Made by a program: the position numbers and the translations under genes. A DNA stretch of 64,000 nt. Source: Acidobacteriota bacterium. Its GTDB lineage: Bacteria; Acidobacteriota; UBA6911; RPQK01; JAJDTT01. The notes below the pieces were generated by a model. That model was given only the letters and a program-made list of their open reading frames with translations. It was not told where the DNA came from and did no database searches. The DNA lies in NCBI GenBank assembly GCA_965217775.1, contig CBDCJH010000002.1, positions 2,080,001 through 2,144,000 on the forward strand, read 5' to 3'. This document shows positions 30,242 through 45,287 of the stretch, piece by piece; the first letter of the stretch is position 1; each line of letters starts with the position of its first letter.

Positions 30242-30337
30242 GCGGGAGCGGCTGGAGAGTCGACTGCGCGAGTTGGAAGTCCTGCAACGTGGGGGTCAGG
30301 TTGCGAGCGCATTCGTCACTGCCGCGAGAGGAGGTGC

Positions 30338-30367
30338 CGAGAGGAGGTGACTGTCCCCCTTCTCTCG
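30338..30367 (+). repeat. Cassette-delimiting palindromic repeat R1
   Basis: CGAGAGGAGGTGACTGTCCCCCTTCTCTCG (one extra C), preceded by an extra left half-site CGAGAGGAGGTG at 30325-30336. Confidence 0.95.
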
Positions 30368-30384
30368 CCCGACGTTACTCTACC

Positions 30385-30414
30385 TTGACCACCCGATTCG
30401 GTGTCCTCTACGAT
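30385..30414 (+). promoter_or_regulatory. Putative sigma70 promoter inside the oxidoreductase cassette
   Basis: TTGACC-N18-TACGAT, conserved upstream of the second copy (~36627-36656). Confidence 0.5.
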
Positions 30415-30450
30415 TCACCCAAATTCCAGCCCCCAGAAAGGACGGCCATC

Positions 30451-31680
30451 ATGGTGAGATCGGAGAGGCGCTCCCAATTCATCAGCCGCCGGATGTTTTT
30501 CCAAAGTGCGAAGGCAGCCGGTACGACCGCATTGACGGCTTCGCTATTCGGAAAATCGTATCGCCCGCTCGAGGCTGGCAAGCAGTTGCGGATCGGTGTG
30601 GTGGGCGGCGGATTCGGCGCCGCGTTTCCCTGGCAGCGGCATCCCAACTGCAAGGTGACCGCGGTCGCTGATCTCAGGGCGGACCGGCGGAAAAGGCTGG
30701 AAGAGAGTTTCGAATGCTCTAACACCTATGCCGATTTCCGTGCCATGCTCAAGGACCCTTCAGTGGATGCAGTCGCCATCTTCACCGGGGCACCCCATCA
30801 CGTTCCGCACTGCGTGGAGGTCATGGAATCCGGTCGGCACGTCATCAGTGCGGTTCCAGCCGCCATAACCTTGGAACAGTGCCAGCAGCTTCTGGAGGCC
30901 GTGAAGCAGACCGGCCAGATCTACATGATGGCCGAAACCAGTTGCTTTCACCCAGCCACCATGACTGCCCGTAGACTGAGACAAGAAGGCAAGTTCGGGA
31001 GAATCTACTACACCCAGGGGGATTACATCCATGACCACGGCACCTACCTGGCGAAGGGGGAGATGCCGGAGTATCTGGAGCGGATGTTCTTTCACGAGGG
31101 TAAGCCGACATGGCGGTATGGCAACGCTCAAGGCCTCTATATCACCCATGCCAGCGGTCCGATCATTCATGTGACCGGCGAGAGCCTGGTTGAGGTCGCG
31201 GCGGTCGGAACACCGATGGACTACCCGTTCTTCAAGGAGAACCGGTACGGTAACCCGTTTGTGAACACCACCTTCTTCTTCAAGACGTCGGGTGGAAACT
31301 CCTCCCGAATCAACATCCACTGGTGGACCTCAGCTCCCGGCCGTGAAGGAGCGGATTATTTTGGGACCGAAATGTCGTTGTTCGAGAGGTGGAAGGGTCT
31401 GCGCCCTTCCGCTTACGTGACCCGTCCTCATTCAGAACCCGAACTTTTGCAGGCAGACCACTCGGCAGAACTGCCGCCGTCGCTGCGGAACGTTGGGGGA
31501 CACGGGGGTTCCCATCCCTTCATCATTCATGAGTTCGTTTCGGCATGTCTGGAGCAACGGCCCCCGTCGGTCGATGTCCATCAGGCCCTGTCCTATACTG
31601 CGCCCGGAATCGTAGGATTCCACTCGGCCCTAAAGGGTGGAGACTGGCTGAAGATTCCCGATTTTGGACCCGTCAGCTAG
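30451..31680 (+). CDS. Tat-exported Gfo/Idh/MocA oxidoreductase, copy 1
   Basis: SRRMFF twin-arginine signal, RIGVVGGGFG, YMMAET, GGHGGSH; 409 aa. Confidence 0.88.
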   Translation: MVRSERRSQFISRRMFFQSAKAAGTTALTASLFGKSYRPLEAGKQLRIGVVGGGFGAAFPWQRHPNCKVTAVADLRADRRKRLEESFECSNTYADFRAMLKDPSVDAVAIFTGAPHHVPHCVEVMESGRHVISAVPAAITLEQCQQLLEAVKQTGQIYMMAETSCFHPATMTARRLRQEGKFGRIYYTQGDYIHDHGTYLAKGEMPEYLERMFFHEGKPTWRYGNAQGLYITHASGPIIHVTGESLVEVAAVGTPMDYPFFKENRYGNPFVNTTFFFKTSGGNSSRINIHWWTSAPGREGADYFGTEMSLFERWKGLRPSAYVTRPHSEPELLQADHSAELPPSLRNVGGHGGSHPFIIHEFVSACLEQRPPSVDVHQALSYTAPGIVGFHSALKGGDWLKIPDFGPVS

Positions 31681-31720
31681 CCGATCCCGGAGAGTCCGGC
31701 GGCTTGGGGAACTCGCGCGG

Positions 31721-31749
31721 CGAGACGAGGTGACCGTCCCCTTCTTCCG
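31721..31749 (+). repeat. Repeat R2
   Basis: CGAGACGAGGTGACCGTCCCCTTCTTCCG. Confidence 0.9.
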
Positions 31750-31961
31750 CGCCGACGGGCCTGGAATCCTGCGCCGCGAAAGGTTGTGGAATAGTAGTTG
31801 ACCAAGCGATTGGGAACTTGCTAGGTTGACCGACCGAATGGGGAAGCCACACTTACCTGAGCCCTTCGATGGGGCCTGCTGGTTTTAAATGGAGGGATGA
31901 GTTCCGCATCTGAAACTAACCGATGAGGATTGGCGGGACTGGTTGACTCGGGAGATTTGAG

Positions 31962-32465
31962 ATGACTCGATACCCGATTGTTTACACCTACAGAGAAGTC
32001 ATTGTGGGCAATGGATACGTGGCGGCCGTGGAAACCACTGGCAGGTGCCTGATGGAGGACTTTGGTAATGAGGATGTCTGGGTCACCGGAGTCGATCCTT
32101 CTGGATTTTCCGCCGGGGCCGACGACCAACAAGCCGCTGCGGAAGCCTTCCAGCGAGAGCACCGTGTCGCTCTCCTTGACATGATTCATGAGGCACCTGA
32201 TTTCGAGAGCTTTAGCACCATGGTCCATGAGTTCCATGCTCAGAAGAGTGTGATCGGCCAGAAGGAATGGTGGGAAGCCGTTGCTCAAGTAAGGGCTGGG
32301 GTAATCACATCTGAGTGGCTGGAGAAAGTGTCGGCCGACACTGAACCCAAGCTCAAGGTTCAGTGTATTTCTTTGGGCAATTCCGAGGAGCCCGTGGAAC
32401 ATCGGGCTGTACCGAGCCCGTCACTCAATCCTGACGAGTATCAGATTAGAAAACTCGCTGCGTGA
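31962..32465 (+). CDS. Hypothetical protein (possibly HicB-like fold)
   Basis: 167-aa ORF with GGGAG RBS; TGATG overlap with a following 26-codon stub. Confidence 0.6.
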   Translation: MTRYPIVYTYREVIVGNGYVAAVETTGRCLMEDFGNEDVWVTGVDPSGFSAGADDQQAAAEAFQREHRVALLDMIHEAPDFESFSTMVHEFHAQKSVIGQKEWWEAVAQVRAGVITSEWLEKVSADTEPKLKVQCISLGNSEEPVEHRAVPSPSLNPDEYQIRKLAA

Positions 32466-32545
32466 TGCCGGCGAAAGGGCAGATTCCCATCAGGCAAGTG
32501 AAGAAAATGCTTGATGAATGTGCCCCCGGATCCGAACTGCCTTGA
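32465..32545 (+). pseudogene. Truncated partner gene ending at repeat R3
   Basis: MPAKGQIPIRQVKKMLDECAPGSELP*, translationally coupled; the stop abuts R3. Confidence 0.45.
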
Positions 32546-32574
32546 GGAGAGGAGGTGACTGTCCCCTTCTCCCG
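32546..32574 (+). repeat. Repeat R3
   Basis: GGAGAGGAGGTGACTGTCCCCTTCTCCCG. Confidence 0.95.
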
Positions 32575-33090
32575 AAGTGGCCCACATGCACGCGCGATGG
32601 CGCTGTCCGCGACCTCGCGCCGGACACTGCCGAGGTCGAGGCTCCCACTGATCCGCAGGCTGGCCGTGCCCGGCCTGAAGATGCGGTCCCGCAAGACCCG
32701 CTTCTCTCATCTCAGTTCGTCGGCAGTCTTCAATTGTCCTTCCTCGACGGAATCCGGAGCGAGACTTGGTTCAGCGTCCCTAACCGTCGGTTCGCCGAAG
32801 GATCGGGGTGCGCCACGTTCTCCAGCCCATGGCAATTGCTGATTGATCGATTACTTCACGTACTTTACACTATATAAGCTCATAATATCACTATAATTTC
32901 ACTCTATTCTGCTATCGTTGATTCAAGTATGTTGCTCGACGCGTTAGAGGCCATTTGTTGGCCTTCGAACGTTTCACAGAGAACTCAGCATGGGAAGCGC
33001 AGGTCACCGCGGGGTACCCGATCCAGTTGAGATCCTAGAGACGATTGACGTGATTACCCGTTCGGCACCCATGTAGTTGAAAAGAATCCA

Positions 33091-34716
33091 ATGAGAAAGC
33101 AGATGAGACCGATTGTCTTGGTTTTCGTGACGGCGTTGTTCGGCTGGGTGACCGGTGCCTCCGGGCTTGCCCAGACCATCTACGAGGTCACCATCTATAA
33201 CCTCACTCGGGGTCAGTTGATCACCCCTCCATTGCTGGCCACGCTCGGCCGAGAGGTTCAGAGCACGGATCAGACCGATCCACCGTATGCGGGCACTGTC
33301 TGGATCGACCCGGACATCATCACGCCATCAGATCCGACTGCGCTCGTGAGCGTGACGGATGCCGGAAGGGGGCAACGGACGATGTTCGACCAGCGGATCA
33401 AGGACTGGATCATGGTCAACGCCTATTTGTTCATGGCCCGATTTGATGATGGGCTGACTGCGGAGATTCAGGTCAATCCAGAGTTCGGCAGTGCGTCCTC
33501 CGCGATGGCAAAGGCAAGCAAATATGGGAGATCCATTGGCCAATTGCCGACCGTTCTTCGAACCAATGTCGAGACGGTCTGGATCCATAAAGGGAATGCA
33601 CCTCTCGGGGGTGGGAACAACAATATTCTCATTCATGTCGATTTTCCGGAAGATTATCTGGAGGAGGGATTGGTCCACGAGGGGGCGCACACTTCCCTGG
33701 ACCCACCTTGGATGGGGATTGTCAATGCCGCCGATTGGCGCGCTGCCCAGACGGCCGATGGCAACTTCATTTCCAACTACGCACGAGACCATCCGGAGCG
33801 AGAAGACATCGCCGAATCGTTCCTGCCGTACTTGGCCGTCCGAAATCGTTCGGCTCGAATCTCCCGATCTTACGAGCGGACAATCTTGGAGACGATGCCG
33901 AACCGGATCGCATACTTCGACCGACTTCTCCAGGCTCAATCGGACAACGCATTGCATCCAATCACGTTGGACCTTCGAAAGTCTCTGGACTTCGCGCATT
34001 TCGGGAATGGCGGGTCCATCACCTCGGACTTGGTGTTGATGAACGTGGAGCCGTCGGCGACTTACCCGGCCGTCTACTTCTACGACGAAATGGGTGAACT
34101 GATCGACCCCGAATCGGTGGTGGAGGTGACGGAAAATCTGGAAGTCCGGGAGGACGGAGCGTTGACCACCCGGACGGGGATTGAGCCTCTGGGTGAACTG
34201 GTGATTTCGACCCATGGGCGAGGGAAGTTGGTGACCGGATCGGTTACGGTCTTCTCCGACATCGTGCGCTCCAATCTCCAGGGCGGCAAGAACCGAGCGG
34301 ATGCGGGTGGCGCGGCCCGCATCGGCGGGGTCCTGCGGTTCGACTCCCCGTCCCTGGGCGTGGCCGGCGTGGGGGCCAGTGCGCCCGTAAACGACGTCAT
34401 TTTCCCGGCGCGTCGCCAAGAGGGCGGAATCAACACCGGAGCCGCGATCCGGAACCTGGGAGAGAATCGGATCGATGTGAGTTGCCAATTGATGAAAGCA
34501 GGCGCCGTATTGGAGACGAAGGACATTTCACTGGCCGGTAACGGACAGACGGCCAAGTTCATCCACGAGTTGTTCACCCAGACCGATACGTCCGATTTTG
34601 TCGGGTCGGTTCGTTGCACCGCTCCTGAAGGGGAACGGTTCACCGGTGTCGCCCTGGAGATGGATGCCGATAGCCGAATCTTTACGACTTTGCCGGTGGT
34701 TCCCGTCCCGCAGTGA
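33091..34716 (+). CDS. Secreted HExxH zincin-like protein with one copy of the shared C-terminal domain
   Basis: Signal peptide; LVHEGAH and NYA...EDIAESF; C-terminal DFAHFGNG...IFTTLPVVP homologous to the giant proteins. Confidence 0.8.
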   Translation: MRKQMRPIVLVFVTALFGWVTGASGLAQTIYEVTIYNLTRGQLITPPLLATLGREVQSTDQTDPPYAGTVWIDPDIITPSDPTALVSVTDAGRGQRTMFDQRIKDWIMVNAYLFMARFDDGLTAEIQVNPEFGSASSAMAKASKYGRSIGQLPTVLRTNVETVWIHKGNAPLGGGNNNILIHVDFPEDYLEEGLVHEGAHTSLDPPWMGIVNAADWRAAQTADGNFISNYARDHPEREDIAESFLPYLAVRNRSARISRSYERTILETMPNRIAYFDRLLQAQSDNALHPITLDLRKSLDFAHFGNGGSITSDLVLMNVEPSATYPAVYFYDEMGELIDPESVVEVTENLEVREDGALTTRTGIEPLGELVISTHGRGKLVTGSVTVFSDIVRSNLQGGKNRADAGGAARIGGVLRFDSPSLGVAGVGASAPVNDVIFPARRQEGGINTGAAIRNLGENRIDVSCQLMKAGAVLETKDISLAGNGQTAKFIHELFTQTDTSDFVGSVRCTAPEGERFTGVALEMDADSRIFTTLPVVPVPQ

Positions 34717-34739
34717 CGAGAATCAATTGAAAAGACGTC

Positions 34740-34850
34740 CTTCCGATAGCCGATGCCGCCGCTCTCCGTGCCGACCTCGGTCTGATACTTGAGGATAAAG
34801 GTGATCAGGTCGGCCATCTCCTGGTGGTCGATGTTCTCTTCCAGACTCTT
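34740..34850 (-). pseudogene. 3' fragment of a paralogue of the PVC-type heme protein at 46733-49900
   Basis: LEENIDHQEMADLITFILKYQTEVGTESGGIGY versus LEETINHQEMADLISFILKYQYEVGTESAGIGY. Confidence 0.8.
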
Positions 34851-34862
34851 GTAACGGGCCCG

Positions 34863-34891
34863 CGAGAGGAGGTGACTGTCCCTTTCTCCGT
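34863..34891 (+). repeat. Repeat R4
   Basis: CGAGAGGAGGTGACTGTCCCTTTCTCCGT. Confidence 0.95.
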
Positions 34892-34907
34892 TTCACTTGA
34901 CTTACAG

Positions 34908-35189
34908 TCAGCAAAACGACCCCATTACGTAGATACCACCGAGAAGCGCCCCAGTGAGAACAATTGCCGGAATGTATCCTCCCGATGGTGCCGCCGGTGG
35001 TGGTGCCGATGGTGCCGCCGGTGGTGGTGCCGACCTGGAGTTTAGCCATCGGATCGACGCCCAAATCAGCAGAATCACGAAGACCGGAAGTAGAGCCAGT
35101 GCAGCAAGATACAAAAATGCAAGAATCCCCAGGCCACCGACCCCCAAGATTACCGCTATCGCTGCCAGTAACTCTGCTATCTCTGCCAT
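34908..35189 (-). CDS. Small hypothetical membrane protein
   Basis: GAGGGGGG RBS, hydrophobic segments, internal 24-bp tandem duplication at 34982-35029. Confidence 0.5.
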   Translation of the reverse strand: MAEIAELLAAIAVILGVGGLGILAFLYLAALALLPVFVILLIWASIRWLNSRSAPPPAAPSAPPPAAPSGGYIPAIVLTGALLGGIYVMGSFC

Positions 35190-35521
35190 GGCGAAGCCCC
35201 CCTCAGTATTTGCCCCTCTTCTCGCCGGTCGCCTTCCACCATCCGAACGCCAGAGCTGCCCGTTGCTCCCGGTCGGGATGCTCGAAGTCATGCGCGAATA
35301 GTCGATCAGGTCTGGAAGCCGGACCCTTGTAGCGTAGATCGAACGCAGCCGCGACGAGCCGAACGAGGAAGCTTCTCACTTGCCATTGATCCGCCTTGAG
35401 ACCCGGGGTCCGCTGCCGAGACATGCTACCCAGGATTGCAGACAGTTGGAACCGGGGGACCTCCAGTAAATCCAGGCTGGAGTTGATTGCCGATCAAATT
35501 CGACCTGGAGCATCCGTTTCC

Positions 35522-35778
35522 TCATTCTGCCGCCTCGTAGAGCGATGAAATCCCGAACCCCTGGACCTCGACGCCCTCAGAGTAGGCAGTCGACATAGCG
35601 GGAGATTTCCAACGCAGGATGACCGCGACCGCATGCGCCGGTATACCGTTCAATGTGAGCTGCTGAGCCAGACCCCCTCTCAGGGAATGACCGGAGACCC
35701 TGCCCCGGATGCCCGATTGACGTGCCCTTTTCTTGATCACGTCTCGAACTGCCCGAGCTACGAGCTTCACGTGGAGAG
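35522..35778 (-). pseudogene. C-terminal fragment of a tyrosine recombinase, cut at R5
   Basis: VIKKRARQSGI..RVSGHSLRGG.AQQL...RWKSPAMSTAY (HxLR box and catalytic Tyr region); no N-terminus. Confidence 0.75.
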
Positions 35779-36174
35779 TGAAGAGAGGTGACTGTCCCCT
35801 TCTCTCGTCCCCGTTGAAGTCAACGAGACATCGAGCCTCACTTGGTCGTAAGGCACCCGCGGGACCAGCCTCCCACGCGCTCCCCGTTGCAATTCCACGA
35901 TCCCGTATTGAGACATCGTCTTCAGAGTTCGCGAAAGGTTCGACTTGCTTCGTCCGGCCATCTCCGCGAGCTCCGTGAGCGAACCCGGTTGCTCTCGGGC
36001 AATCAGCTCCAGGAGATGCCTGTTGTGCTCGGACAGCAACTTCGCAATGCTCTCGATCGAGGTGAACCACACCTTCGGCTCACCCTTCGCGGGCGTGTGC
36101 TCGCCGCGGGCAATCGCCAGGGTGCGCGCCTTCATCTGATCATAACCGGCAATCCCGATCTCTAACGTCTTCAT
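35767..36174 (-). CDS. HTH transcriptional regulator/antitoxin (HVO_A0114-like)
   Basis: WFTSIESIAKLLS...PGSLTELAEMAGRSKSNLSRTLK; the C-terminus reads through R5. Confidence 0.75.
   Translation of the reverse strand: MKTLEIGIAGYDQMKARTLAIARGEHTPAKGEPKVWFTSIESIAKLLSEHNRHLLELIAREQPGSLTELAEMAGRSKSNLSRTLKTMSQYGIVELQRGARGRLVPRVPYDQVRLDVSLTSTGTREGDSHLSSLST
35779..35807 (+). repeat. Repeat R5
   Basis: TGAAGAGAGGTGACTGTCCCCTTCTCTCG. Confidence 0.9.
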
Positions 36175-36246
36175 GGAATCGAGCCTCCTTTCTCCAAGAA
36201 CTTGGTCCACTTCTTTCCAGAAATCCTCGAGGAGCGTCGCTGCGTC

Positions 36247-36543
36247 TTAGTATTCATAGGGCCGGATCGTCCGCAGCCGATGCCGATGGTCGCCCTCTGC
36301 CCGTCGTCGCCTGCCCGGGCCCGACCGCTCCCTAACCGGGTGCGCATTATCGATTCCAACCAATCTGGCGCCATCCGGCGCGTGCAGCGTCAACGAGTAC
36401 CGGAGGCCGTGCGGTCGTTCGGGAGTCACCTCGGTCCGCACTACGATGAACTTCACCCAATACCCCGTGTCGTCCACAAACAGCGTCTCGCCGTGAAGGT
36501 CGAGCAGGGTGTCCAGTCCGGGATCTCGGCCCGGAATCGTCAT
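36247..36543 (-). pseudogene. DUF6516/TumE-like putative toxin, probably with a premature stop
   Basis: RPHGLRYSLTLHAPDGARLVGIDNAH..DHRH; after the TAA the frame continues DAATLLEDFWKEVD. Confidence 0.65.
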
Positions 36544-36580
36544 CGATTGATGTTATCAGATAATGATAACCGAGGACGGG

Positions 36581-36609
36581 CGAGAGGAGATGACTGTCCC
36601 CTTCTCTCG
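36581..36609 (+). repeat. Repeat R6
   Basis: CGAGAGGAGATGACTGTCCCCTTCTCTCG. Confidence 0.95.
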
Positions 36610-36693
36610 CCTTGCGTTACCCTGCCTTGACCGCCTGATTCGGTGCCCTCTACGATTCACCCCAGATTCCAGCCCACAGAAAGGACAGCCATC

Positions 36694-37923
36694 ATGGTGA
36701 GATCGAAAGCACGATCCCAATCCATCAGTCGCCGAATGTTTTTCCAAGGTGCAAAGGCAGCTGGTACGACAGCATTGACGGCTTCACTATTCGGAAGACG
36801 GTACCGCCCGCTTGAGGCTGGCAAGCAGTTGCGCATCGGCGTGGTGGGCGGTGGATTCGGCGCAGCGTTTCCCTGGCATCGGCATCCCAACTGCAAGGTG
36901 ACCGCAGTCGCTGATCTCAGGGAGGACCGCCGGAAAAAGATGGAAGAGCGGTTCGAGTGCTCTAACGCCTATGCGGATTTCCGCGCCATGCTCAAGGACC
37001 CCTCAGTGGATGCAGTCTCCATCTTCACCGGGGCGCCCCGTCACGTTCCCCATTGCGTGGAGGTCATGGAATCCGGTCGACACGTTATCAGCGCCGTTCC
37101 GGCCGCCATAACCCTGGAACAGTGCCAGCAGCTTCTCGTGGCCGTCAAAAAAACCGGCCAGATCTACATGATGGCCGAAACCAGCTGCTTTCACCCATCC
37201 ACCATGACTGCCCGCAGACTAAGGCAAGACGGCAAGTTCGGGAGAATCTATTACACGCAGGGGGACTACCTCCATGACCACGGCACCTACTTGGCGAAGG
37301 GGGAGATGCCGGAGTATCTGGATCGGATGTTCTTTCACGAGGGCAAGCGAACATGGCGGTACGGCAACGCGCAAGGCCTCTATATCACCCATGCCAGCGG
37401 TCCGATCATTTATGTGACCGGCGAGAGCTTGGTTGAGGTCGCGGCGGTCGGAACGCCGTTGGATCACCCGTTCTACAAGGAGAACCGGTACGGCAACCCC
37501 TTCATGAACACCACCTTCTTCTTCAAAACGTCGGGTGGAAACTCCTCCCGAGTCAACATCCACTGGTGGACCGCAGCTCCCGGCCGTGAAGGTGCGGACT
37601 ATTTTGGGACCGAAATGTCGTTATTCGAGAGGTGGAAGGGTCTGCGCCCTTCCGCTTACGTGACTCGTCCTCATTCAGAACCCGAACTTCTGCAGGCAGA
37701 CCACTCCGGGGAACTGCCGCCGTCACTGCGGACCGTTGGGGGACACGGGGGTTCCCATCCCTTCATCATTCATGAGTTCGTTTCGGCATGTCTGGAGCAG
37801 CGCCCCCCGTCAGTCGATGTCCATCAGGCCCTGTCCTATACTGCGCCCGGAATCGTAGGATTCCACTCGGCTCTGAAGGGTGGAGACTGGCTGAAGATTC
37901 CCGATTTTGGACCCGTCAGTTAG
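36694..37923 (+). CDS. Tat-exported Gfo/Idh/MocA oxidoreductase, copy 2
   Basis: 409 aa, collinear and highly similar to 30451-31680. Confidence 0.88.
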   Translation: MVRSKARSQSISRRMFFQGAKAAGTTALTASLFGRRYRPLEAGKQLRIGVVGGGFGAAFPWHRHPNCKVTAVADLREDRRKKMEERFECSNAYADFRAMLKDPSVDAVSIFTGAPRHVPHCVEVMESGRHVISAVPAAITLEQCQQLLVAVKKTGQIYMMAETSCFHPSTMTARRLRQDGKFGRIYYTQGDYLHDHGTYLAKGEMPEYLDRMFFHEGKRTWRYGNAQGLYITHASGPIIYVTGESLVEVAAVGTPLDHPFYKENRYGNPFMNTTFFFKTSGGNSSRVNIHWWTAAPGREGADYFGTEMSLFERWKGLRPSAYVTRPHSEPELLQADHSGELPPSLRTVGGHGGSHPFIIHEFVSACLEQRPPSVDVHQALSYTAPGIVGFHSALKGGDWLKIPDFGPVS

Positions 37924-37963
37924 CCATAACCGGTGAGCCCGGTTGTTTTGGAAACTCGCGCGG

Positions 37964-37992
37964 CGAGAGGAGGTGACTGTCCCCTTCTCCCG
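37964..37992 (+). repeat. Repeat R7
   Basis: CGAGAGGAGGTGACTGTCCCCTTCTCCCG. Confidence 0.95.
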
Positions 37993-38099
37993 GTTATGGC
38001 CGCCAATTTCCTCCGGGCTATGGCAGGAAGAATAGAGTCGTTTAAACTGCACTCATAGGCTGAAAATGTAGCACCATCCCATCGGCGAGGAGAGAGTCA

Positions 38100-38780: not shown

Positions 38781-38804
38781 AACGCGTCGGCAACAAAATA
38801 CGGA

Positions 38805-38833
38805 CAAGAGGAGGTGACTGTCTCCTTCTCCCG
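38805..38833 (+). repeat. Repeat R8
   Basis: CAAGAGGAGGTGACTGTCTCCTTCTCCCG. Confidence 0.9.
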
Positions 38834-38914
38834 CCCGTCAAAGCTGGAGACGAAATTGTTGGGTGGAGTTCCGGAAACCCCGGTGTTCCACTTTGACCGA
38901 CAAGAACTCCCATC

Positions 38915-39568: not shown

Positions 39569-39772
39569 GGTATGGCAAGGTATTTTTTGGGACTACAACC
39601 CACAACCCTAACTGGCTGATTTTCTGCGCCGGACGTGGTCCTGTGCCCCACTCTTTCCGGCCTTGGTGAGTTCACTCCGACGAAATAATCGCATTTGCCC
39701 CTTCTGGGATCATTCCAACCAGGAGGTCGATGCCTGAGGCGCCGGACCCACAAATGCGGAGGAAGGGCCAAA

Positions 39773-39801
39773 CGAGAGGAGGTGACTGTCCCCTTCTCGT
39801 C
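39773..39801 (+). repeat. Repeat R9
   Basis: CGAGAGGAGGTGACTGTCCCCTTCTCGTC. Confidence 0.95.
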
Positions 39802-39863
39802 CGATTTTGGACCCGTCGGTTAGCCGATCCCGGAGAGGCCGGCGGCTTTGGGAACTCGCGGGA
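39801..39863 (+). pseudogene. 63-bp 3' tail of the oxidoreductase cassette (third, vestigial copy)
   Basis: Aligns without gaps to 31658-31720 (PDFGPV.* plus trailer). Confidence 0.9.
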
Positions 39864-39892
39864 CGAGACGAGGTGACTGTCCCCTTCTCCCG
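39864..39892 (+). repeat. Repeat R10
   Basis: CGAGACGAGGTGACTGTCCCCTTCTCCCG. Confidence 0.95.
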
Positions 39893-40116
39893 CGCCCGGT
39901 TGCGGCGGGGGAGCGGAGCTGGCCCACGCGCTACAGTGCGAGACCGAGGGCCGATTTCGATGATCTGGAAGCTACCACTATTCAACTCGGGCTCCCGCAC
40001 CCGAGCTACTGGCCCGAGACTCGGGCAAGGGATAGACTGGGGGACAGGAGGGTAGTTCTCTGTGGGCTCGTCAGGCCGAGTGGGAACGTGTCGAAACAGC
40101 GGGTTGAGTAAAGACT

Positions 40117-41136
40117 ATGGACGTGAGTTTACGGGTTCCTGCGATAGAAAAACTCTTAGATTATGCCGCTAGTGGAATCGGGGCGATCGCCGGACCGATG
40201 TTAGCCAATTGGAGAGCATCCAGAGAAGGAAAGGCTCGACTCACTTCCGCCCATGTTGATGCGGAAGTGCGCCACATTGAAACGAAATCAAACACCCGAT
40301 CCTTGCAGATCATCGCCAAAGCTCAGGCCACGGCTCGGCAATCTATTGACACAACGATTGAGTCAGGGCACGGCATGGTGAAAATCACCCGTGACGACAT
40401 TACCCAGTCAATTGAGTTTCAGGGGCGAAAACGCCTAGCAAATGCCGGATCCGTCGTAGAGAGTGCTGCCGATGAGCTTGGCGGCAAGGAAGTTTCAGGT
40501 CACGAGCCTAACCATGACTGGACGGCGCGAGTCTTTAACTACATACAGGACGTATCTTCAGAAGAGATGCAGTTGCTTTGGGCGAAAGTGCTCGCTGGCG
40601 AGATTCAACGACCCGGGAGTACGTCCATTCAGGCTCTAAGTATTCTGAGAAATCTTGACCAGACCACGGCTAGACTTTTTGAAAAGCTCTGCTCCGCCTG
40701 TGTCTCGATTAGGGTGTCTGGAGATCATTTCATGGATGCTAGAGTTCCTTCATTGGGTGGTCATGCAGGACACAACGTCCTGCGAGATTACGGACTCAGT
40801 TTTGATAACCTCAATGTACTCAACGAGCATGGGCTCGTAATCTCCGACTACAACTCTTGGTACGACTACAGGCTGTGCATAGGGATTCGTATAGGCGAAC
40901 CTGTGCAGCACACCGTCCGAATTCCCTTCCGTTTTCAGGGGCGAAATTGGACTTTGAAGCCGACAACCGAACAGGCTGTAGACCAAGAATTCAAGTTATC
41001 GGGTGTAGCTTTGACCGGATCAGGACGGGAGCTGTCAAGGATTGTCGATTTGGTGCCCGTGAACAAGTACGCTCAAGCCCTAATGAATTTCTTTCAAAAG
41101 AATAATTTGAAAATGATTGAGGTTGATAGAGCCTGA
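40117..41136 (+). CDS. DUF2806-like protein
   Basis: DWTARVFNYIQDVSSEEMQLLWAKVLAGEIQRPGS...LTGSGREL. Confidence 0.75.
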   Translation: MDVSLRVPAIEKLLDYAASGIGAIAGPMLANWRASREGKARLTSAHVDAEVRHIETKSNTRSLQIIAKAQATARQSIDTTIESGHGMVKITRDDITQSIEFQGRKRLANAGSVVESAADELGGKEVSGHEPNHDWTARVFNYIQDVSSEEMQLLWAKVLAGEIQRPGSTSIQALSILRNLDQTTARLFEKLCSACVSIRVSGDHFMDARVPSLGGHAGHNVLRDYGLSFDNLNVLNEHGLVISDYNSWYDYRLCIGIRIGEPVQHTVRIPFRFQGRNWTLKPTTEQAVDQEFKLSGVALTGSGRELSRIVDLVPVNKYAQALMNFFQKNNLKMIEVDRA

Positions 41137-41531
41137 TAGATACGCTTGTCATTGAAGTCGGCACGGACGTTACCGGTCTTTGGGAAGGCTCCAATAAACC
41201 CCTTTTGTGCCCTGAGGGCTTCCCTGGAAGCACCCAGTTTGTTCAATGGGTCATTGCCTCGAACCATGAAGGGTCGGTTGGTTCGCAAGCGAATACTGTG
41301 AGCCGCGCCACCGTTTCTATTCAGCCAAGTCATCGTCTCTTTCAGCAATTCCACCATTCCCACTCATGTGTGTGTCTGCTGCGCCTTCGAAGAAGTGGTC
41401 ACCAAGGAGAAGCCGACCCCAAACTCAGCCATGACGAATGTTCTCTAGCATAACGGTCCGTGCTGAACAGGACAGATCATGTGCCAACGACAGTGCAGCG
41501 CACTAGGATTGCACGGTGGGATGGTTCCTCA

Positions 41532-42550
41532 ATGAGTATCGAGCAGCGCTTCGATGTTCCCGTCATCGCCGCAATGGCGCTCCGGGAGAAGCAGATCCAG
41601 CAGAACTACCGCCCGATCATCAGTGTCCATAAATGGTTCGCCCGCCGGCCGGGAACCTTGTTTCGCGGCCTCGTACTTGCAGAATTCGGCAAAGACCCAC
41701 TGAAAAATGCTTTCTTTCGAGCAAACAACTTTTACGGACTCCGGATCGCCGACTCGTTCATGGGCGGCGGCACGCCGCTGATCGAGGCGAATCGCGTTGG
41801 CTGTGACGTGGATGGTTGTGACGTCAACCCGATGGCGGCCTGGATCGTCCGTGAGGAGGTCGAACACATTGACATGCCGGCCTATGAACGGGCGGCTGAT
41901 GCGCTCACCGCTGCCCTCCGCTCGGAGATCGGCCGATACTATCGGACTTCCTGCCCCCACTACGGAGATGAGGACGTCCCGGTGGAATCCTTTCTGTGGC
42001 TCAAGCAACTCGATTGCGAAGCCTGCAGAATGCCCTTCGATCTATTCCCTGGCTACCTTCTCGCCAAGAATAGGCGGCACCCCAAAAATGTCCTGGTCTG
42101 TCCAACGTGCGGCGATCTCAACGAAGTCCGGTCGGATCTTGACACTTATGTCGATGCCGTGTTCGGGTGTCTCACGTTCGAGTTTCTCGTCATGCCCAAG
42201 GGCGACGGGTTTGTCGAGTTTCCCGTGTTCGAGAACGGGTACGAAGCCCTGAAGCGCGCCACCGCCAGCTTCCGCGAAGTCACCCCTGGTACAGTCGCAG
42301 CGGTTGTATTCGAGACGCCAATTTTACTGATCGTCCTTCGGTGCATGCTGGGGTTCACACCGCCGGAGTGGACTTAATACGCAAACAGGCACACCGGCGT
42401 CAACGTGACGCAGGGCGCGGCCCGTGCGATCGACCGGAAAATCCGCATGAAACCCGAGACGGCCTTGCCTACGAAGGGAAGTGTGACCGAACGGCGCATT
42501 CGCGCGCTGATCGCTGCCGCCTGTCATGCCCTGGAGTCCGGGGTTCGTGA
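41532..42550 (+). pseudogene. DUF1156-type adenine DNA methylase N-terminus fused to a fragment of another gene; internal stop, cut at R11
   Basis: VHKWFARRP, DSFMGGGT SAM motif, CxxC Zn ribbon, no catalytic DPPY. Sequence character changes at ~42130. TAA at 42375, then the frame stays open into R11. Confidence 0.7.
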
Positions 42551-42579
42551 GGAGAGGAGGTGACTGTCCCCTTCTCCCG
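42551..42579 (+). repeat. Repeat R11
   Basis: GGAGAGGAGGTGACTGTCCCCTTCTCCCG. Confidence 0.95.
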
Positions 42580-43023
42580 GGTGGGTCTGGCGGGGACGAA
42601 GTGGGCGCGGCACAGAGCTGGACGATGCGCCTGAAACTGCTGAAGATCGGGGCCCAGGTCCGGGTCACGACGCGCAAGGTCTGGTTGTCGTTTTCCGAGA
42701 GCTACCCCTATGCGGCGTTGTTGAGAACGGCTCTGGCGCAAGTGCAAGCCCTCCCGCTTCGCTGTTAGCGAGAACTCGCCCGATGCAAGACGTCCGGTTG
42801 GGAATCCGCGGGATGGACTTTGCCCTGGAGTCGGTTCATTGGGGGTGAAACGTCGCTCATGAGTGCCGGCGGGAGGCCAAATGCTTCTGGACTTTGCCGG
42901 ATTCCGGCATTCGTCAACGCATTCGAGCCGACGGCATGGTTCTCGATTTCATGTGGACAAGAAACCACTGAAATGCTGTTAATAAAACCGATTGTCGCGT
43001 CCGTGTTGAGAAATTGCGGCTAG
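42580..43023 (+). mobile_element. 3' remnant of an IS1380-like element
   Basis: TMRLKLLKIGAQVRVTTRKVWLSFSESYPY transposase C-terminus (stop at 42768); probable element end TGAGAAATTGCGGCTAG at ~43007-43023. Confidence 0.7.
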
Positions 43024-43073
43024 CAGTTGAAGGACGAATTGCTCTTGGGGTGTTGTCAGTTCTTCGGGTTCGG

Positions 43074-43550
43074 TCATGCTGTCCATTTGCAAAAGATGAG
43101 GCAAAGATTGACGATCATGGTAACGAAGAATAGTAATAGGAATGAAGTTGGCAGGATTGTCTCGACAACTGTTAGCTTTGCGTAGCTTCGATATTCCTTC
43201 CCTTCTTTCAGCAGTTCCCATTCTCGTTTGAAGAACGGATAAGGCAACTCCTTCTCCATTTCTTGCAAGGCTTTGAACTTTCCGGAGTTGAGTTGTCTGT
43301 AGGATCGAATAACAATGTACCACGAGAGTGAAAGGAAAATCCCCACGACTGAAGCGACGGCCAGGACGGTTGGCACGGGTCCGTCACCAAATCTGACTAA
43401 GGCTCCGGTAAATGCTACGAATGTTGTAAGCATCCCGGCATAAAGCCGATTGGCTCCCTCCCGACGTTGACTTACTCTGTCAGCAAGTCGAGCGTGAAGC
43501 TTGTAGATTTCCAATAGCGTACTGGATTGCGAATCGGGAGGATCGGTCAT
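43074..43550 (-). CDS. Small multi-TM putative defence effector (RipA/SLATT-like)
   Basis: LLEIYKL..ADRVSQRRE.ANRLY, two TM segments, SYRQLNSGKF..L.EME..LP, a further TM segment; 3 bp downstream of the TIR gene. Confidence 0.65.
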   Translation of the reverse strand: MTDPPDSQSSTLLEIYKLHARLADRVSQRREGANRLYAGMLTTFVAFTGALVRFGDGPVPTVLAVASVVGIFLSLSWYIVIRSYRQLNSGKFKALQEMEKELPYPFFKREWELLKEGKEYRSYAKLTVVETILPTSFLLLFFVTMIVNLCLIFCKWTA

Positions 43551-43553
43551 TGT

Positions 43554-43964
43554 CTAACCCTGCCTTCTAATCGCAGCGACGATACTCTCGGTATTCCAGT
43601 TAACAATCTCGTCGGCGGCCACCGTAACCACCGTTGACATATTCGTATTTCCCCACGGTTTAATTGCGATTATAGGTTTGGGGGACGAGAAACCGTTTTT
43701 TGCTATACCAATCTCTTCTTTTATCCACTTGCTATAAGTGGAGTACACTCCGGCCATGATAAGTATGACGTGACATGGTCTCATATGGTTTGTGATTGCT
43801 TCTCGAAGCTCGTCCTCATTGTCCGCGTCGTGGACTGGATCATCTTTGGGAACCGAATAGTCCCTGAACGAGAAGTAGGCTCTAGAATTCAAAAGATTTA
43901 TAAGTCTATCGTAATTCTCTGAGTAGGACCATGAATGGCTAATAAACAAATTGTAAGTTTTCAT
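43554..43964 (-). CDS. TIR domain protein (MTH538/DUF1863, ThsB-like)
   Basis: YNLFISHSW...DYSVP...SKWIKEEI...KPIIAI. Confidence 0.85.
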   Translation of the reverse strand: MKTYNLFISHSWSYSENYDRLINLLNSRAYFSFRDYSVPKDDPVHDADNEDELREAITNHMRPCHVILIMAGVYSTYSKWIKEEIGIAKNGFSSPKPIIAIKPWGNTNMSTVVTVAADEIVNWNTESIVAAIRRQG

Positions 43965-44209
43965 TCCTGTCTCCTTGAACGGTAGTCTCACCGTCGATTA
44001 CTGGGCAATCTGCTCACTTTACTACAATGGACTGACGAATACCTCAGTGACTTTCCTGAGTCGAAGGGAGTATCATGAACTGAGGACGGGCAATGACTGT
44101 CTGACTCCTGTAGCTCAGTCAAAGGTTCAGCAGGAGTCGCATTCTGGTTCTACCTGTCATCCTTCCCTTACCACAGGTTGGAGTCTGGCTTGAGTTTGTC
44201 AACTAGGAT

Positions 44210-44639
44210 TTATAATTCCCAATTCAAAACATTCTCGCCGAAATCTCCAAGAGAAGAGATCCGGTTCCTCAAGGCGGCAAGAGGGATGGAGTCAAAGTAG
44301 TTAGCAAGATCAGTGATGACGACGTAGTTGTAGGATCGCGCGAACTTCCAGATCCGTTCCTGGAATCGCGGCCACAGAATCCACCAAGGATACGCGAATG
44401 TGCCGTCAACCTCCTCGGGAGTCGGGAGAGCATGATTCTGGGAGTAGTAGGCGTTCGGATGGGGCTGATCAGCCCTGATCTCCCTCTCTAGAACATTGAC
44501 CAGAGTCTGGAGAAGAATAGCGTCTGCCGCCGACGGCAGAACCAATCGCCGAGGGATTCCTCCCCGTTTCTCTAGCAGTATGATCTCGGGTGGGGACGGG
44601 CGATACTGACCTGAAAGGACTTCACTTCTTAGCAAGGAC
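44210..44639 (-). pseudogene. Reverse transcriptase fragment (N-terminal motifs only), cut at R12
   Basis: SGQYRPSPP...EKRGGIPRRL..P...D...VVITDLANYFDSI; no PQG or YxDD motif. Confidence 0.75.
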
Positions 44640-44668
44640 CGAGAGGAGGTGGCTGTCCCCTTCTCACG
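44640..44668 (+). repeat. Repeat R12
   Basis: CGAGAGGAGGTGGCTGTCCCCTTCTCACG. Confidence 0.92.
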
Positions 44669-44758
44669 CGCACGCACGAGTGTTGGAACCTCTCCGCTGT
44701 GTCCAATGGAATCCAGGAGACGACCCAAGGGTGGCGAGAGTGTACGTGAGAACGATGG

Positions 44759-45031
44759 TCATTCGAGCGCTACGAGGCCCAGGATGACACTCATGACGAT
44801 GGCTGTGATGAGAGGGATAACGAGGTAGTAGAGGGTGAGGATGGCCAGGAAAACGTAGAGTATCCACTTGACAGCCCAGACCATGCCGCCGAGATGGCGA
44901 GCTAAGCCAGCCGGGGGAGCTTGTCGGCGCGGCGGCTGGCGCTGTTGGAGGGCCTTCCGCAGATTCTCCGCCTCGCGGCGCATCCTTTCCGCCCGCGAAG
45001 GGCCGGGCGCTGGCGGACATCCTCGAACCAC
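44759..45031 (-). CDS. Small hypothetical membrane protein or fragment
   Basis: Two hydrophobic C-terminal segments; start uncertain. Confidence 0.35.
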   Translation of the reverse strand: MVRGCPPAPGPSRAERMRREAENLRKALQQRQPPRRQAPPAGLARHLGGMVWAVKWILYVFLAILTLYYLVIPLITAIVMSVILGLVALE

Positions 45032-45259
45032 TGGCCTACATCTGGCGGGTCTTCCCCGTCAGCCTCCCTGAAAAGGCCCGAGAAGTAGTGGTCACGGACC
45101 TGCTCAACCAGAACAACCACCAGCCGTCCATTAGGTCGTCTGGTTGGCAAGTTCCATGGGTCATAAACTAAGTATAGCCCGCCTCAGAACGGACAATCCA
45201 CTTCCCCCACTGTGGACTGTCTCCTCTGGGGCCACAAAAAACGTGACCGATCTCCGTGG

Positions 45260-45287
45260 CGAGAGGAAATGACTTTCCCCTCTCTAA
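45260..45287 (+). repeat. Repeat R13 (degenerate, array-terminal)
   Basis: CGAGAGGAAATGACTTTCCCCTCTCTAA. Confidence 0.75.

What the first reader, a model, noticed from the sequence alone, without database searches (positions are those of the whole stretch)
30325..45287. Gene-cassette array punctuated by 13 same-orientation 29-bp palindromic sites: candidate capture/shuffling system that is neither an integron nor CRISPR
Seen: copies of CGAGAGGAGGTGAC-T-GTCCCCTTCTCNCG start at 30338, 31721, 32546, 34863, 35779, 36581, 37964, 38805, 39773, 39864, 42551, 44640 and 45260 (degenerate). All point the same way, and I found no full copy outside the island. The site is a 14-1-14 inverted repeat with two fixed mismatches that give it polarity. 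The 12 intervals run from 62 bp to ~2.7 kb, often hold one gene or module, contain genes on either strand, and are enriched in TA, nuclease-like, TIR, RT and methylase sequences. Established: integron attC sites have RYYYAAC/GTTRRRY ends and vary in sequence, CRISPR spacers are short and uniform, and pdif modules use 28-bp Xer sites; none of these matches. Inference: these are recombination or cleavage sites for a trans-acting enzyme (a tyrosine recombinase, or an HUH/RAYT-type Y1 transposase acting on hairpins) that accumulates and reorders accessory and defence DNA.
Basis: partly seen in the sequence, partly recalled or inferred. Interest (0 to 1): 0.92.

Follow-up and report, generated by a model that had tools for sequence, protein, structure and literature searches.

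The report
Transposase-end repeats partition a variable gene island
The 29-base sites are real, but they belong to a genome-wide repeat family tied to a multi-copy single-strand (Y1/HUH) transposase, and in this bacterial genus they mark the seams of gene islands that differ between species.

Summary
There are 12 clear co-oriented copies and one relic at the stated places, with none expected by chance. The claim of uniqueness fails: the core GACTGTCCCCTTCTC occurs about 150 times in this 6.4-Mb Acidobacteriota genome, in co-oriented clusters. The same core forms the inverted terminal repeats of 11 copies of a 311-aa RAYT-like Y1/HUH transposase gene. This is the TIRYT/"TIRtron" arrangement of Di Nocera 2013, and its GGGGWSAS motif fits. 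Motif and close transposase homologues co-occur in the same 9 of 30 relatives.

The window's island lies between two conserved genes in all located congeners, measures 3 to 60 kb, and always carries sites in the same orientation. Module order differs between species. Modules recur in other arrays. Truncated genes abut site edges.

It is not an integron (no IntI, no attC), not CRISPR and not pdif-like. A hairpin is not supported: there is no covariation, the predicted fold is weak, and the G023 version is non-palindromic. A third array is largely collinear between species, so turnover is slow.

Best reading (about 0.5): solo transposon-end sites used in trans by the Y1 transposase, which make module-wise rearrangement possible. 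Passive repeat-mediated recombination is the main rival. This is a new variant of a known kind.

The parts
30338..30367 (+). Site 1. It has one extra C in the right arm and is preceded by a partial duplicate of the left arm at 30326-30337.
   Evidence: Homology to G007 stops exactly at the left edge, where G007 reads on into other sequence.
31721..31749 (+). Site 2, at the 3' end of oxidoreductase module A1.
32546..32574 (+). Site 3.
34863..34891 (+). Site 4. A 117-bp copy of the 3' end of the flanking DUF7133 gene (34733-34849) lies 13 bp to its left.
   Evidence: (family D4).
35779..35807 (+). Site 5, with a diverged left arm. A tyrosine recombinase C-terminal fragment (35578-35773, - strand) abuts its left edge. 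The toxin-antitoxin module starts 1 nt after its right edge.
36581..36609 (+). Site 6, at the 3' end of the toxin-antitoxin module C.
   Evidence: A site is present after module C in 6 of 6 genomes.
37964..37992 (+). Site 7, an exact match to the consensus, at the 3' end of oxidoreductase module A2.
   Evidence: Short-read contigs from four samples bridge it with 0 differences (table 8).
38805..38833 (+). Site 8.
39773..39801 (+). Site 9.
39802..39863 (+). A 62-bp interval that is a relic of the last 62 bp of module A.
   Evidence: (family D3: 92% to 31658-31753).
39864..39892 (+). Site 10.
42551..42579 (+). Site 11.
44640..44668 (+). Site 12. A reverse transcriptase fragment (UG13a type, about 44221-44632, - strand) abuts its left edge.
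45260..45288 (+). Degenerate relic of a site.
   Evidence: Seen only. Below the nhmmer listing.
30368..31720 (+). Module A1: Gfo/Idh/MocA oxidoreductase. Its upstream region contains TTGACC and TACGAT, which look like promoter hexamers (read from the sequence, not tested).
   Evidence: Module A is found at this locus in all 8 genomes compared.
36610..37963 (+). Module A2: a paralogous Gfo/Idh/MocA oxidoreductase, 91% identical to A1 in DNA.
35808..36580 (-). Module C: TumE-like toxin (36247-36543) with an HTH protein (ORF 35767-36210, whose last codons run into site 5).
32575..34862 (+). Module with a 541-aa protein of unknown function (33091-34716) and the DUF7133 3' fragment.
   Evidence: 91% to G006.
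39893..42550 (+). Module with DUF2806 (40117-41136) and a methylase N-terminal fragment (41460-42377).
42580..44639 (-). Module with an 8xMP membrane protein (43074-43550), a ThsB-like TIR protein (43554-43991) and the reverse transcriptase fragment.
27596..29374 (+). Conserved left flank: alpha/beta hydrolase gene. Synteny with congeners ends at its stop codon.
46733..49900 (-). Conserved right flank: DUF7133/HEAT/cytochrome c gene.
5256..5441 (+). Remnant of the transposase unit: the last 49 codons of the Y1 transposase gene (5295-5441) next to a partial site on the - strand (5256-5277).

Best explanation
Identity (high confidence, about 0.85). The 29-bp sites are solo members of a lineage-specific repeat family with the core GACTGTCCCCTTCTC. 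The same core forms the terminal inverted repeats of a multi-copy, mobile, RAYT-like Y1/HUH transposase gene. In the terms of Di Nocera et al. 2013 this is a TIRYT gene in a 'TIRtron'.

In this genus the solo sites are near-palindromic. One site therefore reads like a left end from one side and like a right end from the other.

Function (inferred, about 0.5). The Y1 transposases act on these sites in trans. Any segment bracketed by two co-oriented sites has the same termini as the transposase's own unit. It can therefore be cut out, lost, duplicated or re-inserted next to another site.

Over evolutionary time this would build co-oriented arrays at a few chromosomal hot spots. There, self-contained modules accumulate, decay into fragments and change order. 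The modules here include toxin-antitoxin pairs, defence genes and an oxidoreductase that appears to carry its own promoter.

Shown: the repeat family, its link to the transposase gene, co-orientation within clusters, seams at sites, and module differences between species.

Inferred: the enzyme, the chemistry (single-strand nick and rejoin) and any circular intermediate.
For: Link to the transposase.
1. There are 11 full-length copies (83-100% aa identity) of a 311-aa gene. Each is flanked by inverted sites with the same core.
2. The protein matches Pfam Y1_Tnp at 3.4e-9.
3. It matches the NCBIfam REP-associated tyrosine transposase model at 1.7e-13, although 50.7 bits is below the cut-off of 80.
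4. Its model (pLDDT 84.5) is closest to the E. coli RAYT bound to a REP hairpin (4er8, E 1.9e-6), followed by the IS200, IS608 and ISDra2 transposases.
5. The core read on the other strand, GGGGACAG, fits the published TIR motif GGGGWSAS.
6. The 17-mer motif is abundant (16-57 copies) in 8 of 8 congeners and in one genome of another family (G023). It occurs 0-2 times in the other 21 relatives.
7. Homologues with >=73% identity occur in exactly those 9 genomes.
8. The transposase unit at C2:2626206 is found at that place in 0 of the 7 congeners whose flanks I located. In three of them the flanks lie only 45-106 bp apart. The unit is therefore mobile.

The window's locus.
9. The variable stretch lies between the same two genes in the 7 congeners where both flanks sit on one contig. 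It measures 3.0 to 59.8 kb.
10. All 56 sites found there in 8 genomes point the same way relative to the flanks.
11. Modules A and C are adjacent as C-A in four genomes, as A-C in one, and are separated in one.
12. A site follows module C in 6 of 6 copies. A site follows module A directly in 7 of 9 copies and within 60 nt in the other 2.
13. Of 37 distinct homology-block ends, 16 lie within 20 bp of a site, against 4.9% expected.
14. Truncated genes abut site edges in at least five places.

Other arrays and orientation.
15. A methyltransferase module occurs in two G000 arrays and at three places in G007.
16. A second array is also variable, and its flank homology starts right after its last site.
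17. Orientation follows neither the replichore nor the strand of neighbouring genes. Co-orientation is therefore a local property, as expected if new units enter beside existing sites.
Against: - No activity has been observed.
- The 11 transposase copies are only 83-90% identical to each other, so there has been no recent burst.
- The transposase's own repeats belong to other sub-variants (ACAGAC, ATAGAC, TCGAGAC before the core) than most array sites (GGTGAC, CGTGAC).
- A third array is largely collinear in G000, G002, G003 and G007, with orthologous sites kept in place. Turnover is therefore slow. Some homology-block ends at sites may simply be alignment breaks.
- In G023 the co-oriented clusters have 23-220 bp spacers with no room for genes. 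Clustering therefore does not need cargo.
- Some module boundaries have no site at all: the left end of C in G002, G007 and G006.
- The empty place of the transposase unit holds no solo site.
- The alternative joints seen in metagenome contigs have short sides (20-38 nt) inside a repeat and prove nothing.
Confidence: 0.5

Rival explanations
1. Passive repeats. The sites are relics or offshoots of the transposase's ends that spread like REP or MITE elements. They matter only as short homologies at which the host's own recombination and replication slippage make deletions, duplications and exchanges. No enzyme moves modules as units.
For: - The third array is collinear across four species, with sites kept at orthologous places.
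- G023 clusters have no cargo and are partly tandem duplications, for example a 193-bp period.
- Half-site duplications at several sites look like slippage scars.
- A change from C-A to A-C can arise by duplication followed by deletion between direct repeats (inference).
- The shared plasmid-chromosome stretch is a multi-site block, not a single module.
Against: - 25-30 bp is short for RecA-dependent exchange (established knowledge).
- Junctions of unrelated sequence fall exactly at the outer edges of sites, which is what transposon ends give and what homology-driven exchange does not.
- Single modules recur in different arrays.
- Strict local co-orientation without any replichore or gene-strand bias needs a separate explanation.
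Confidence: 0.3
2. Sites for a trans-acting tyrosine recombinase (Xer-like or other). This would be a dif/pdif-like or integron-like double-strand site-specific system.
For: - A 29-bp near-palindrome is the right size for two recombinase arms.
- The genome has about 20 tyrosine recombinase genes.
- A recombinase fragment lies inside the array.
Against: - No recombinase gene is consistently next to arrays (positions against clusters).
- There is no integron integrase.
- The palindrome runs through the centre and leaves no asymmetric spacer (read from the sequence).
- The G023 version keeps only one arm.
- The fragment in the array is a truncated passenger.
- The motif tracks the Y1 transposase across genomes.
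Confidence: 0.06
3. A host regulatory or structural element, such as a terminator, an mRNA-stabilising stem or a protein-binding site. It would sit between transcription units and be kept by selection.
For: - 131 of 154 sites are intergenic by a home-made gene call.
- Orthologous sites persist across species.
- REP elements in enterobacteria have such side roles (abstracts listed).
Against: - Site orientation is unrelated to the strand of neighbouring genes: 44/35/29/23 over the four configurations.
- The fold is no better than shuffles and there is no covariation.
- There is no Rfam match.
- This reading does not explain truncated genes at site edges or the identity with transposon ends.
Confidence: 0.06
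4. An assembly artefact: the array is a chimera joined at repeats.
For: Short-read contigs tend to break at the sites (table 8).
Against: - Eight separately assembled genomes carry an array at the same place and in the same orientation.
- Contigs from four samples bridge sites 4, 7, 8, 9, 12 and the relic with 0 differences (table 8). One of these samples may, however, be the source of the window.
Confidence: 0.01

Closest known systems
TIRtrons: TIRYT genes with their TIR repeat families (Di Nocera et al. 2013, PMC3733652; roughly subclass 2.1 of Quentin et al. 2018, PMC6006769)
   Same: - A RAYT-like Y1/HUH gene longer than canonical RAYTs, flanked by inverted repeats rather than REP hairpins.
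- The repeat carries the GGGGWSAS motif.
- The repeat is also dispersed in the genome singly, in pairs and in groups.
- A distinct Acidobacteria group is described.
- The HuH and Y motifs (NHFH, YVELNA) are close to the printed NH[YF]H and YIELNP.
   Different: - In the passages I read, the papers do not describe co-oriented arrays that partition gene modules at conserved, species-variable loci.
- There are 11 copies per genome, against a mean of 1.9 for subclass 2.1.
- The solo sites in this genus are near-palindromic.
- Subclass assignment was not tested against the authors' profiles, because the supplements are closed.
REP/RAYT systems (REPtrons, REPINs, BIMEs)
   Same: - Extragenic short repeats in about 100 or more copies.
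- A Y1 transposase gene flanked by its own repeats in inverted orientation.
- The best structural match is the E. coli RAYT.
- Long persistence in a lineage.
   Different: - No GT[AG]G foot.
- No supported hairpin.
- The transposase is multi-copy and shows presence/absence at a locus.
- The repeats are single and co-oriented over kilobases, not inverted pairs or alternating BIMEs.
Integrons and CALINs
   Same: Co-oriented sites punctuate an array of mostly one-gene modules at a fixed chromosomal place. A site travels with the 3' side of a module. The content is accessory and rich in toxin-antitoxin genes.
   Different: - No IntI.
- Genes lie on either strand and at least one module has its own promoter-like hexamers.
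- There are dozens of arrays per genome.
- The linked enzyme is a Y1/HUH protein, not a tyrosine recombinase.
IS200/IS605 elements and their palindrome-associated derivatives
   Same: The same enzyme superfamily. In that family the two ends lie on one strand in the same orientation and any cargo between them moves as a single-strand circle. This is established knowledge and is the model for the proposed mechanism.
   Different: - The transposase here is RAYT-like: 311 aa, with a Y...N-type motif rather than Y...Q as in Table 1 of PMC6006769.
- Its own ends are inverted.
- No subterminal hairpins and no tnpB.
- No orientation bias with replication direction.
pdif modules of Acinetobacter plasmids and ISCR/IS91 one-ended capture (both recalled, not tested here)
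   Same: Accessory modules are bounded by short recombination sites (pdif). Alternatively, one transposon end mobilises neighbouring DNA and leaves truncated genes at its edge (ISCR).
   Different: As recalled, pdif sites are 28-bp Xer sites that alternate in orientation. ISCR uses a Y2 rolling-circle enzyme encoded beside its end. Neither feature is seen here.

Membership tests
TIRtron / TIRYT repeat family | A RAYT-like Y1/HUH transposase gene. | tested here: met
   Pfam Y1_Tnp 3.4e-9. Fold closest to 4er8 RAYT, E 1.9e-6. The HuH (NHFH) and Tyr (YVELNA) motifs are conserved in 17 homologues.
TIRtron / TIRYT repeat family | The gene is flanked by terminal inverted repeats that are not REP hairpins. 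| tested here: met
   the left repeats lie on the - strand and the right repeats on the + strand in the copies aligned. Their ssDNA folds are no better than shuffles, z +0.05 and +0.31.
TIRtron / TIRYT repeat family | The TIR carries the motif GGGGWSAS. | tested here: met
   The core read on the other strand is GGGGACAG. The motif is as printed in PMC3733652.
TIRtron / TIRYT repeat family | The TIR is a member of a dispersed repeat family in the same genome. | tested here: met
   154 sites at E<=0.01. 140 core matches against 1-5 for scrambled controls.
Canonical REP/RAYT | The repeat is a stable imperfect hairpin with a conserved GT[AG]G foot. | tested here: not met
   No such tetranucleotide in the logo. 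Paired fraction equals expectation and mutual information is <=0.06 bit. Fold z -0.2 to -1.4.
Canonical REP/RAYT | The RAYT is single-copy and vertically kept. | tested here: not met
   11 copies. The copy at C2:2626206 is found at that place in 0 of 7 congeners with located flanks.
Canonical REP/RAYT | The protein passes the NCBIfam equivalog model for REP-associated tyrosine transposase. | tested here: not met
   50.7 bits against a cut-off of 80.
Integron / CALIN | An integron integrase is present. | tested here: not met
   TIGR02249 best match 80.6 bits against a cut-off of 265, and none is next to an array.
Integron / CALIN | attC sites with R''/L''/L'/R' boxes. | tested here: not met
   The 29-bp site has no GTT or AAC ends (read). 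IntegronFinder itself could not be run. There were no Rfam hits in the window.
Integron / CALIN | Co-oriented sites separate modules. | tested here: met
CRISPR | Regular short spacers between identical repeats. | tested here: not met
   Intervals of 62 bp to 2.7 kb that hold genes.
pdif / Xer modules | Xer-type sites, 11-6-11, in alternating orientation. | tested here: not met
   All 12 sites are co-oriented and the palindrome is continuous through the centre. Xer binding is not testable here.
IS200/IS605 | A short TnpA with a Y...Q motif, subterminal hairpins, and orientation tied to replication. | tested here: not met
   311 aa with YVELNA. No hairpins. No replichore bias.

The most novel reading that the evidence does not exclude
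A cassette platform run by a Y1/HUH transposase instead of an integrase. Near-palindromic solo transposon ends act as both left and right ends. Any module lying between two of them is then a mobilisable unit that the multi-copy TIRYT enzymes cut out and paste beside other sites. This would build defence and toxin-antitoxin arrays at fixed hot spots: an integron analogue with a different chemistry, and the first assigned role for TIRYT proteins.
Probability: 0.3. Interest if true: 0.85.

Novelty: new variant of a known kind. Interest (0 to 1): 0.62.

Why it matters
In what I read, RAYT-like transposases outside the canonical REP systems (TIRYTs, subclass 2.1) are described without a known function. 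Here their end sequences mark the seams of species-variable islands that hold defence and toxin-antitoxin genes. The pattern repeats across eight genomes and many loci.

If the enzyme really moves site-bracketed modules, this would be a second, mechanistically independent way for bacteria to organise accessory genes as cassettes. It would also give a concrete and easily assayed substrate for an uncharacterised enzyme family.

If the repeats are passive, the case still shows that transposon-end relics can structure genome plasticity for long periods.

Tried and rejected
- IS605/TnpB idea. My first guess was that the duplicated 1.4-kb unit was an IS605-type element. I rejected it because the ORF is a Gfo/Idh/MocA oxidoreductase.
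- Haloarchaeal origin. This was suggested by HVO_* Pfam names. I rejected it because of the genome size and because the relatives' record titles read Acidobacteriota.
- Hairpin recognition. I tested it by arm covariation and by ssDNA folding. Neither supports it.
- Replication-strand bias, as for IS608. Not seen. Sites are 19+/28- on one replichore and 55+/36- on the other, the GC skew is weak, and clusters are not independent.
- Link to gene strand. None. The gene calls there are a rough home-made caller that misses several low-GC island genes.
- Other Y1 genes. The two at C2:5635223 and C2:4665591 belong to another type and have no sites of this family nearby.
- Sequence search of the transposase against solved structures. 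Nothing was found, either with the single sequence or with a profile. Only the fold search found the RAYT.
- RNA evidence. No RNA holder was listed.
- Metagenome contigs. Joints between sites were seen in up to 4 runs of one study, for example 29357>35812, 31745>39865, 34889>37963, and one that goes back, 37994>34861. The shorter sides are only 20-38 nt and lie in or next to the repeat. They may come from related species, from other loci or from contig ends, so I draw nothing from them on circles or excision.
- Literature. Three searches found no description of co-oriented TIRYT or REP-type arrays that bound gene modules. This is not proof that none exists.
- What I saw of papers. For PMC6006769 I read the abstract, the outline, section 12 and part 1 of section 15. 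For PMC3733652 I read six passages by term search. All other papers I saw only as search listings. Supplements are closed. Additional file 5 of PMC3733652 and Table S1 of PMC6006769 could bear on the subclass assignment.
I did not use the look-up of encoding contigs, which was stated to be closed.

Full report

Yes. Reading the 13 listed places, a repeat search and a profile search give 12 clear copies and one relic at 45260. Start-to-start spacings are 91-2687 bp. The site is a 14-1-14 near-palindrome with one G.T and one T.C position.

The island has 0.53-0.60 GC against 0.63-0.68 around it.
- a BrnT toxin gene just upstream of the first site;
- a TumE-like toxin with an HTH protein;
- a ThsB-like TIR protein next to an 8xMP protein;
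- a UG13a-type reverse transcriptase fragment;
- a DUF1156-type methylase fragment and DUF2806;
- a tyrosine recombinase fragment;
- two paralogous Gfo/Idh/MocA oxidoreductase genes.

Four of eleven recognisable genes lie on the - strand.

**2. The site is not unique to the island.**

The window lies in a 6.29-Mb contig of a 6.43-Mb genome with 62% GC. Record titles of the closest relatives read Acidobacteriota. The 14-base core at <=1 mismatch occurs 140 times, against 1-5 for five scrambled controls. A profile gives 243 hits at E<=10, of which 154 have E<=0.01. These fall into 47 clusters when sites <=8 kb apart are linked, on the chromosome and on the 144-kb replicon. Adjacent sites share orientation in 96 of 107 pairs.

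The right half (TGTCCCCTTCTC) is nearly invariant. The left half is a purine-rich run that differs between clusters.

**3. What the site belongs to.**

A Pfam Y1_Tnp scan of the genome led to a gene at C2:2626206-2627141. It has two sites on the - strand to its left and two on the + strand to its right. There are 11 full-length copies with 83-100% aa identity, and a 49-codon remnant in the window at 5295-5441. Alignment of all copies shows that homology begins and ends at these inverted repeats.

Evidence on the protein:
- Pfam Y1_Tnp at 3.4e-9.
- NCBIfam REP-associated tyrosine transposase at 1.7e-13, but below that model's cut-off.
- Conserved HuH (NHFH) and tyrosine (YVELNA) motifs.
- Public sources name relatives 'REP element-mobilizing transposase RayT' or 'transposase'.
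- Sequence searches of solved structures found nothing.
- An AlphaFold model (pLDDT 84.5) matches the E. coli RAYT bound to a REP hairpin best (4er8, E 1.9e-6), then the IS200, IS608 and ISDra2 transposases.

Di Nocera et al. 2013 (PMC3733652, passages read) describe RAYT-like genes flanked by terminal inverted repeats. They call the genes TIRYTs and the units TIRtrons. The repeats share the motif GGGGWSAS, a distinct Acidobacteria group exists, and the TIRs are sometimes members of dispersed repeat families found singly, in pairs or in groups. Our core read on the other strand is GGGGACAG, which fits.

Quentin et al. 2018 (PMC6006769, sections 12 and 15 read) equate most TIRYTs with their subclass 2.1 (NH[YF]H, YIELNP, C-terminal extension, no REP). 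The array sites are therefore solo members of a TIRtron repeat family.

**4. Link across genomes.**

The 17-mer at <=1 mismatch is abundant in G000 (84 copies), in 8 of 8 congeners (16-55) and in one 3.4-Mb genome of another family, G023 (57). It occurs 0-2 times in the other 21 relatives, and the reversed control pattern gives at most 1 in any genome. Homologues of the transposase with >=73% identity occur in exactly those genomes, at 2-12 matches each. All other relatives have <=58% identity or no match. Because of kinship this amounts to two independent lineages, not nine.

The unit at C2:2626206 is mobile. Its flanks lie 45-106 bp apart in three congeners and hold other DNA in four more. 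None of the seven has the gene there. The empty place contains no solo site.

**5. The locus compared between species.**

The hydrolase gene (27596-29374) and the DUF7133 gene (46733-49900) flank a variable stretch of the following lengths:

| Genome | Length of the variable stretch |
|---|---|
| G000 | 17.4 kb |
| G007 | 12.6 kb |
| G003 | 13.7 kb |
| G002 | 15.3 kb |
| G005 | 12.0 kb |
| G001 | 5.9 kb |
| G004 | 3.0 kb |
| G006 | 59.8 kb |
| G008 | flanks on two contigs |

All 56 sites found there (3-13 per genome, eight genomes) have the same orientation relative to the flanks.

- The oxidoreductase module A is present in all eight genomes.
- The toxin-antitoxin module C precedes A in G000, G003, G002 and G007. 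It follows A in G004. It is separated from A by other modules in G006.
- A site follows C in 6 of 6 copies at a fixed distance. A site follows A directly in 7 of 9 copies and within 60 nt in the other 2. The site therefore travels with the module on its left.
- The left boundary of C is the same nucleotide (within 10 nt) in six genomes, although what lies to its left differs. A site abuts it only in G000.
- Of 37 distinct homology-block ends inside the variable stretch, 16 lie within 20 bp of a site, against 4.9% expected. These ends are not independent. One search shows that alignments can break at sites without any rearrangement.

**6. Truncated genes at site edges.**

The following abut a site edge:
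- the recombinase fragment (35578-35773);
- a copy of the DUF7133 3' end (34733-34849);
- the reverse transcriptase fragment (about 44221-44632);
- the gene that reads on in G007 but stops at 30325 in G000;
- the transposase remnant at 5295-5441.

Other copies of the flanking genes' ends sit beside sites in G005 and G006. Half-site duplications occur at several sites. Junctions of unrelated DNA exactly at the outer edge of a conserved terminal sequence are what transposon ends produce.

In this genus the left arm resembles the reverse complement of the right arm. A solo site therefore looks like a left end from its left and a right end from its right. Two co-oriented sites with what lies between them have the same termini as the transposase's own unit. 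This point is inference.

**7. Other arrays.**

A second array (C2:1523850-1531181) is also variable. Two congeners hold a single module there, bounded by sites, and the right-flank homology starts just after the last site.

A third array (C2:4417704-4432443) is largely collinear in G000, G002, G003 and G007, with recognisably orthologous sites. Arrays can therefore be old and stable.

One of the third array's modules, a 235-aa class I methyltransferase gene, recurs beside a transposase copy at C2:411342-412218 with 90.7% identity. Its homology ends at a left half-site. The same module occurs at three places in G007.

The stretch shared between the small replicon and the chromosome is a multi-site block rather than one module.

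In G023 the clusters are equally co-oriented (12 of 12 and 18 of 18 in two runs). Their spacers are 23-220 bp, they are partly tandem, and the left arm is not complementary to the right. Only the core is conserved between lineages.

**8. Tests of alternatives.**

| Alternative | Result |
|---|---|
| Hairpin | Paired fraction equals expectation at every position, mutual information <=0.06 bit. ssDNA folds -4.1 to -6.6 kcal/mol, z -0.2 to -1.4. The transposase's own repeats and the G023 site do not fold. |
| Replication strand | No consistent bias. |
| Gene strand | None. 131 of 154 sites are intergenic by a rough home-made gene call. |
| Integron | No IntI. |
| Known RNA family | None in the window. 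|
| Tyrosine recombinase | None consistently near arrays. |
| Assembly chimera | Eight assemblies agree. Short-read contigs from four samples of one study bridge several sites without a difference. |

The joints in those contigs are too short-sided to use.

**9. Reading.**

Identity is well supported: these are solo transposon-end repeats of a TIRYT/TIRtron family. The mechanism is inferred. The Y1 transposases act in trans on the sites, so that site-bracketed modules can be excised, lost, duplicated and re-inserted beside other sites. This would explain local co-orientation, seams at sites, fragments at site edges and modules shared between arrays. I give this about 0.5.

The main rival, at about 0.3, is that the repeats are passive and only seed host recombination and slippage. 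The stable third array, the cargo-free clusters in G023 and the sub-variant mismatch between the transposase's own repeats and most array sites all weigh towards slowness or passivity.

**10. Novelty.**

The repeat-plus-transposase kind is known. Three full-text searches and the parts of the two papers that I read show no description of its organisation as co-oriented arrays that partition species-variable gene islands at conserved loci. I file it as a new variant of a known kind.

'Unique to the island', 'hairpin' and 'capture system' do not stand, or not yet.

Noticed in passing
L069 (G003:C1:4468101-4468800). Single copies also in L001 about 2475-2500 and in L066 and L067.: A second, unrelated repeat family made of true short hairpins (GGGCG..AAGAAA..CGCCC type). 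It forms a tandem run of about 44-bp units in G003, at the very place where G000 carries a transposase unit.
   Followed up: no
window 5256-5441: The last 49 codons of the Y1 transposase gene (98% identical to P0001), directly beside a partial site on the - strand. This is another truncated gene at a site edge, 25 kb from the array.
   Followed up: partly
window 3865-5214 and 13400-14749 (- strand): Two members of a roughly 1.35-kb gene family with many copies in this genome and its congeners (65-69% DNA identity to L002:7836-9203). Function not looked up.
   Followed up: no
G000 C2: within 1183201-1186436, 4081140-4083211 and 4520536-4521604: A stretch of about 160-170 bp that is 98.8-99.4% identical in three different arrays, in either orientation. 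It may be a small mobile element of another kind.
   Followed up: no
window 29629-30337: A BrnT toxin gene and a downstream gene lie between the conserved hydrolase gene and the first site. The downstream gene reads on in G007 but is cut off at the first site in G000.
   Followed up: partly
L064 and L065 (G023:C1:1457001-1475000 and 1486001-1491000): In a 3.4-Mb genome of another family the same core forms dense co-oriented runs with 23-220 bp spacers and a non-complementary left side. Its two transposase copies are 79% identical to P0001, which suggests transfer between lineages.
   Followed up: partly
window 42578-43006: The stretch just after site 11 has several-fold higher summed contig depth in four metagenome runs and is also found in G006 outside the site-bearing part of its island. 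It is probably multi-copy or shared with other organisms.
   Followed up: no
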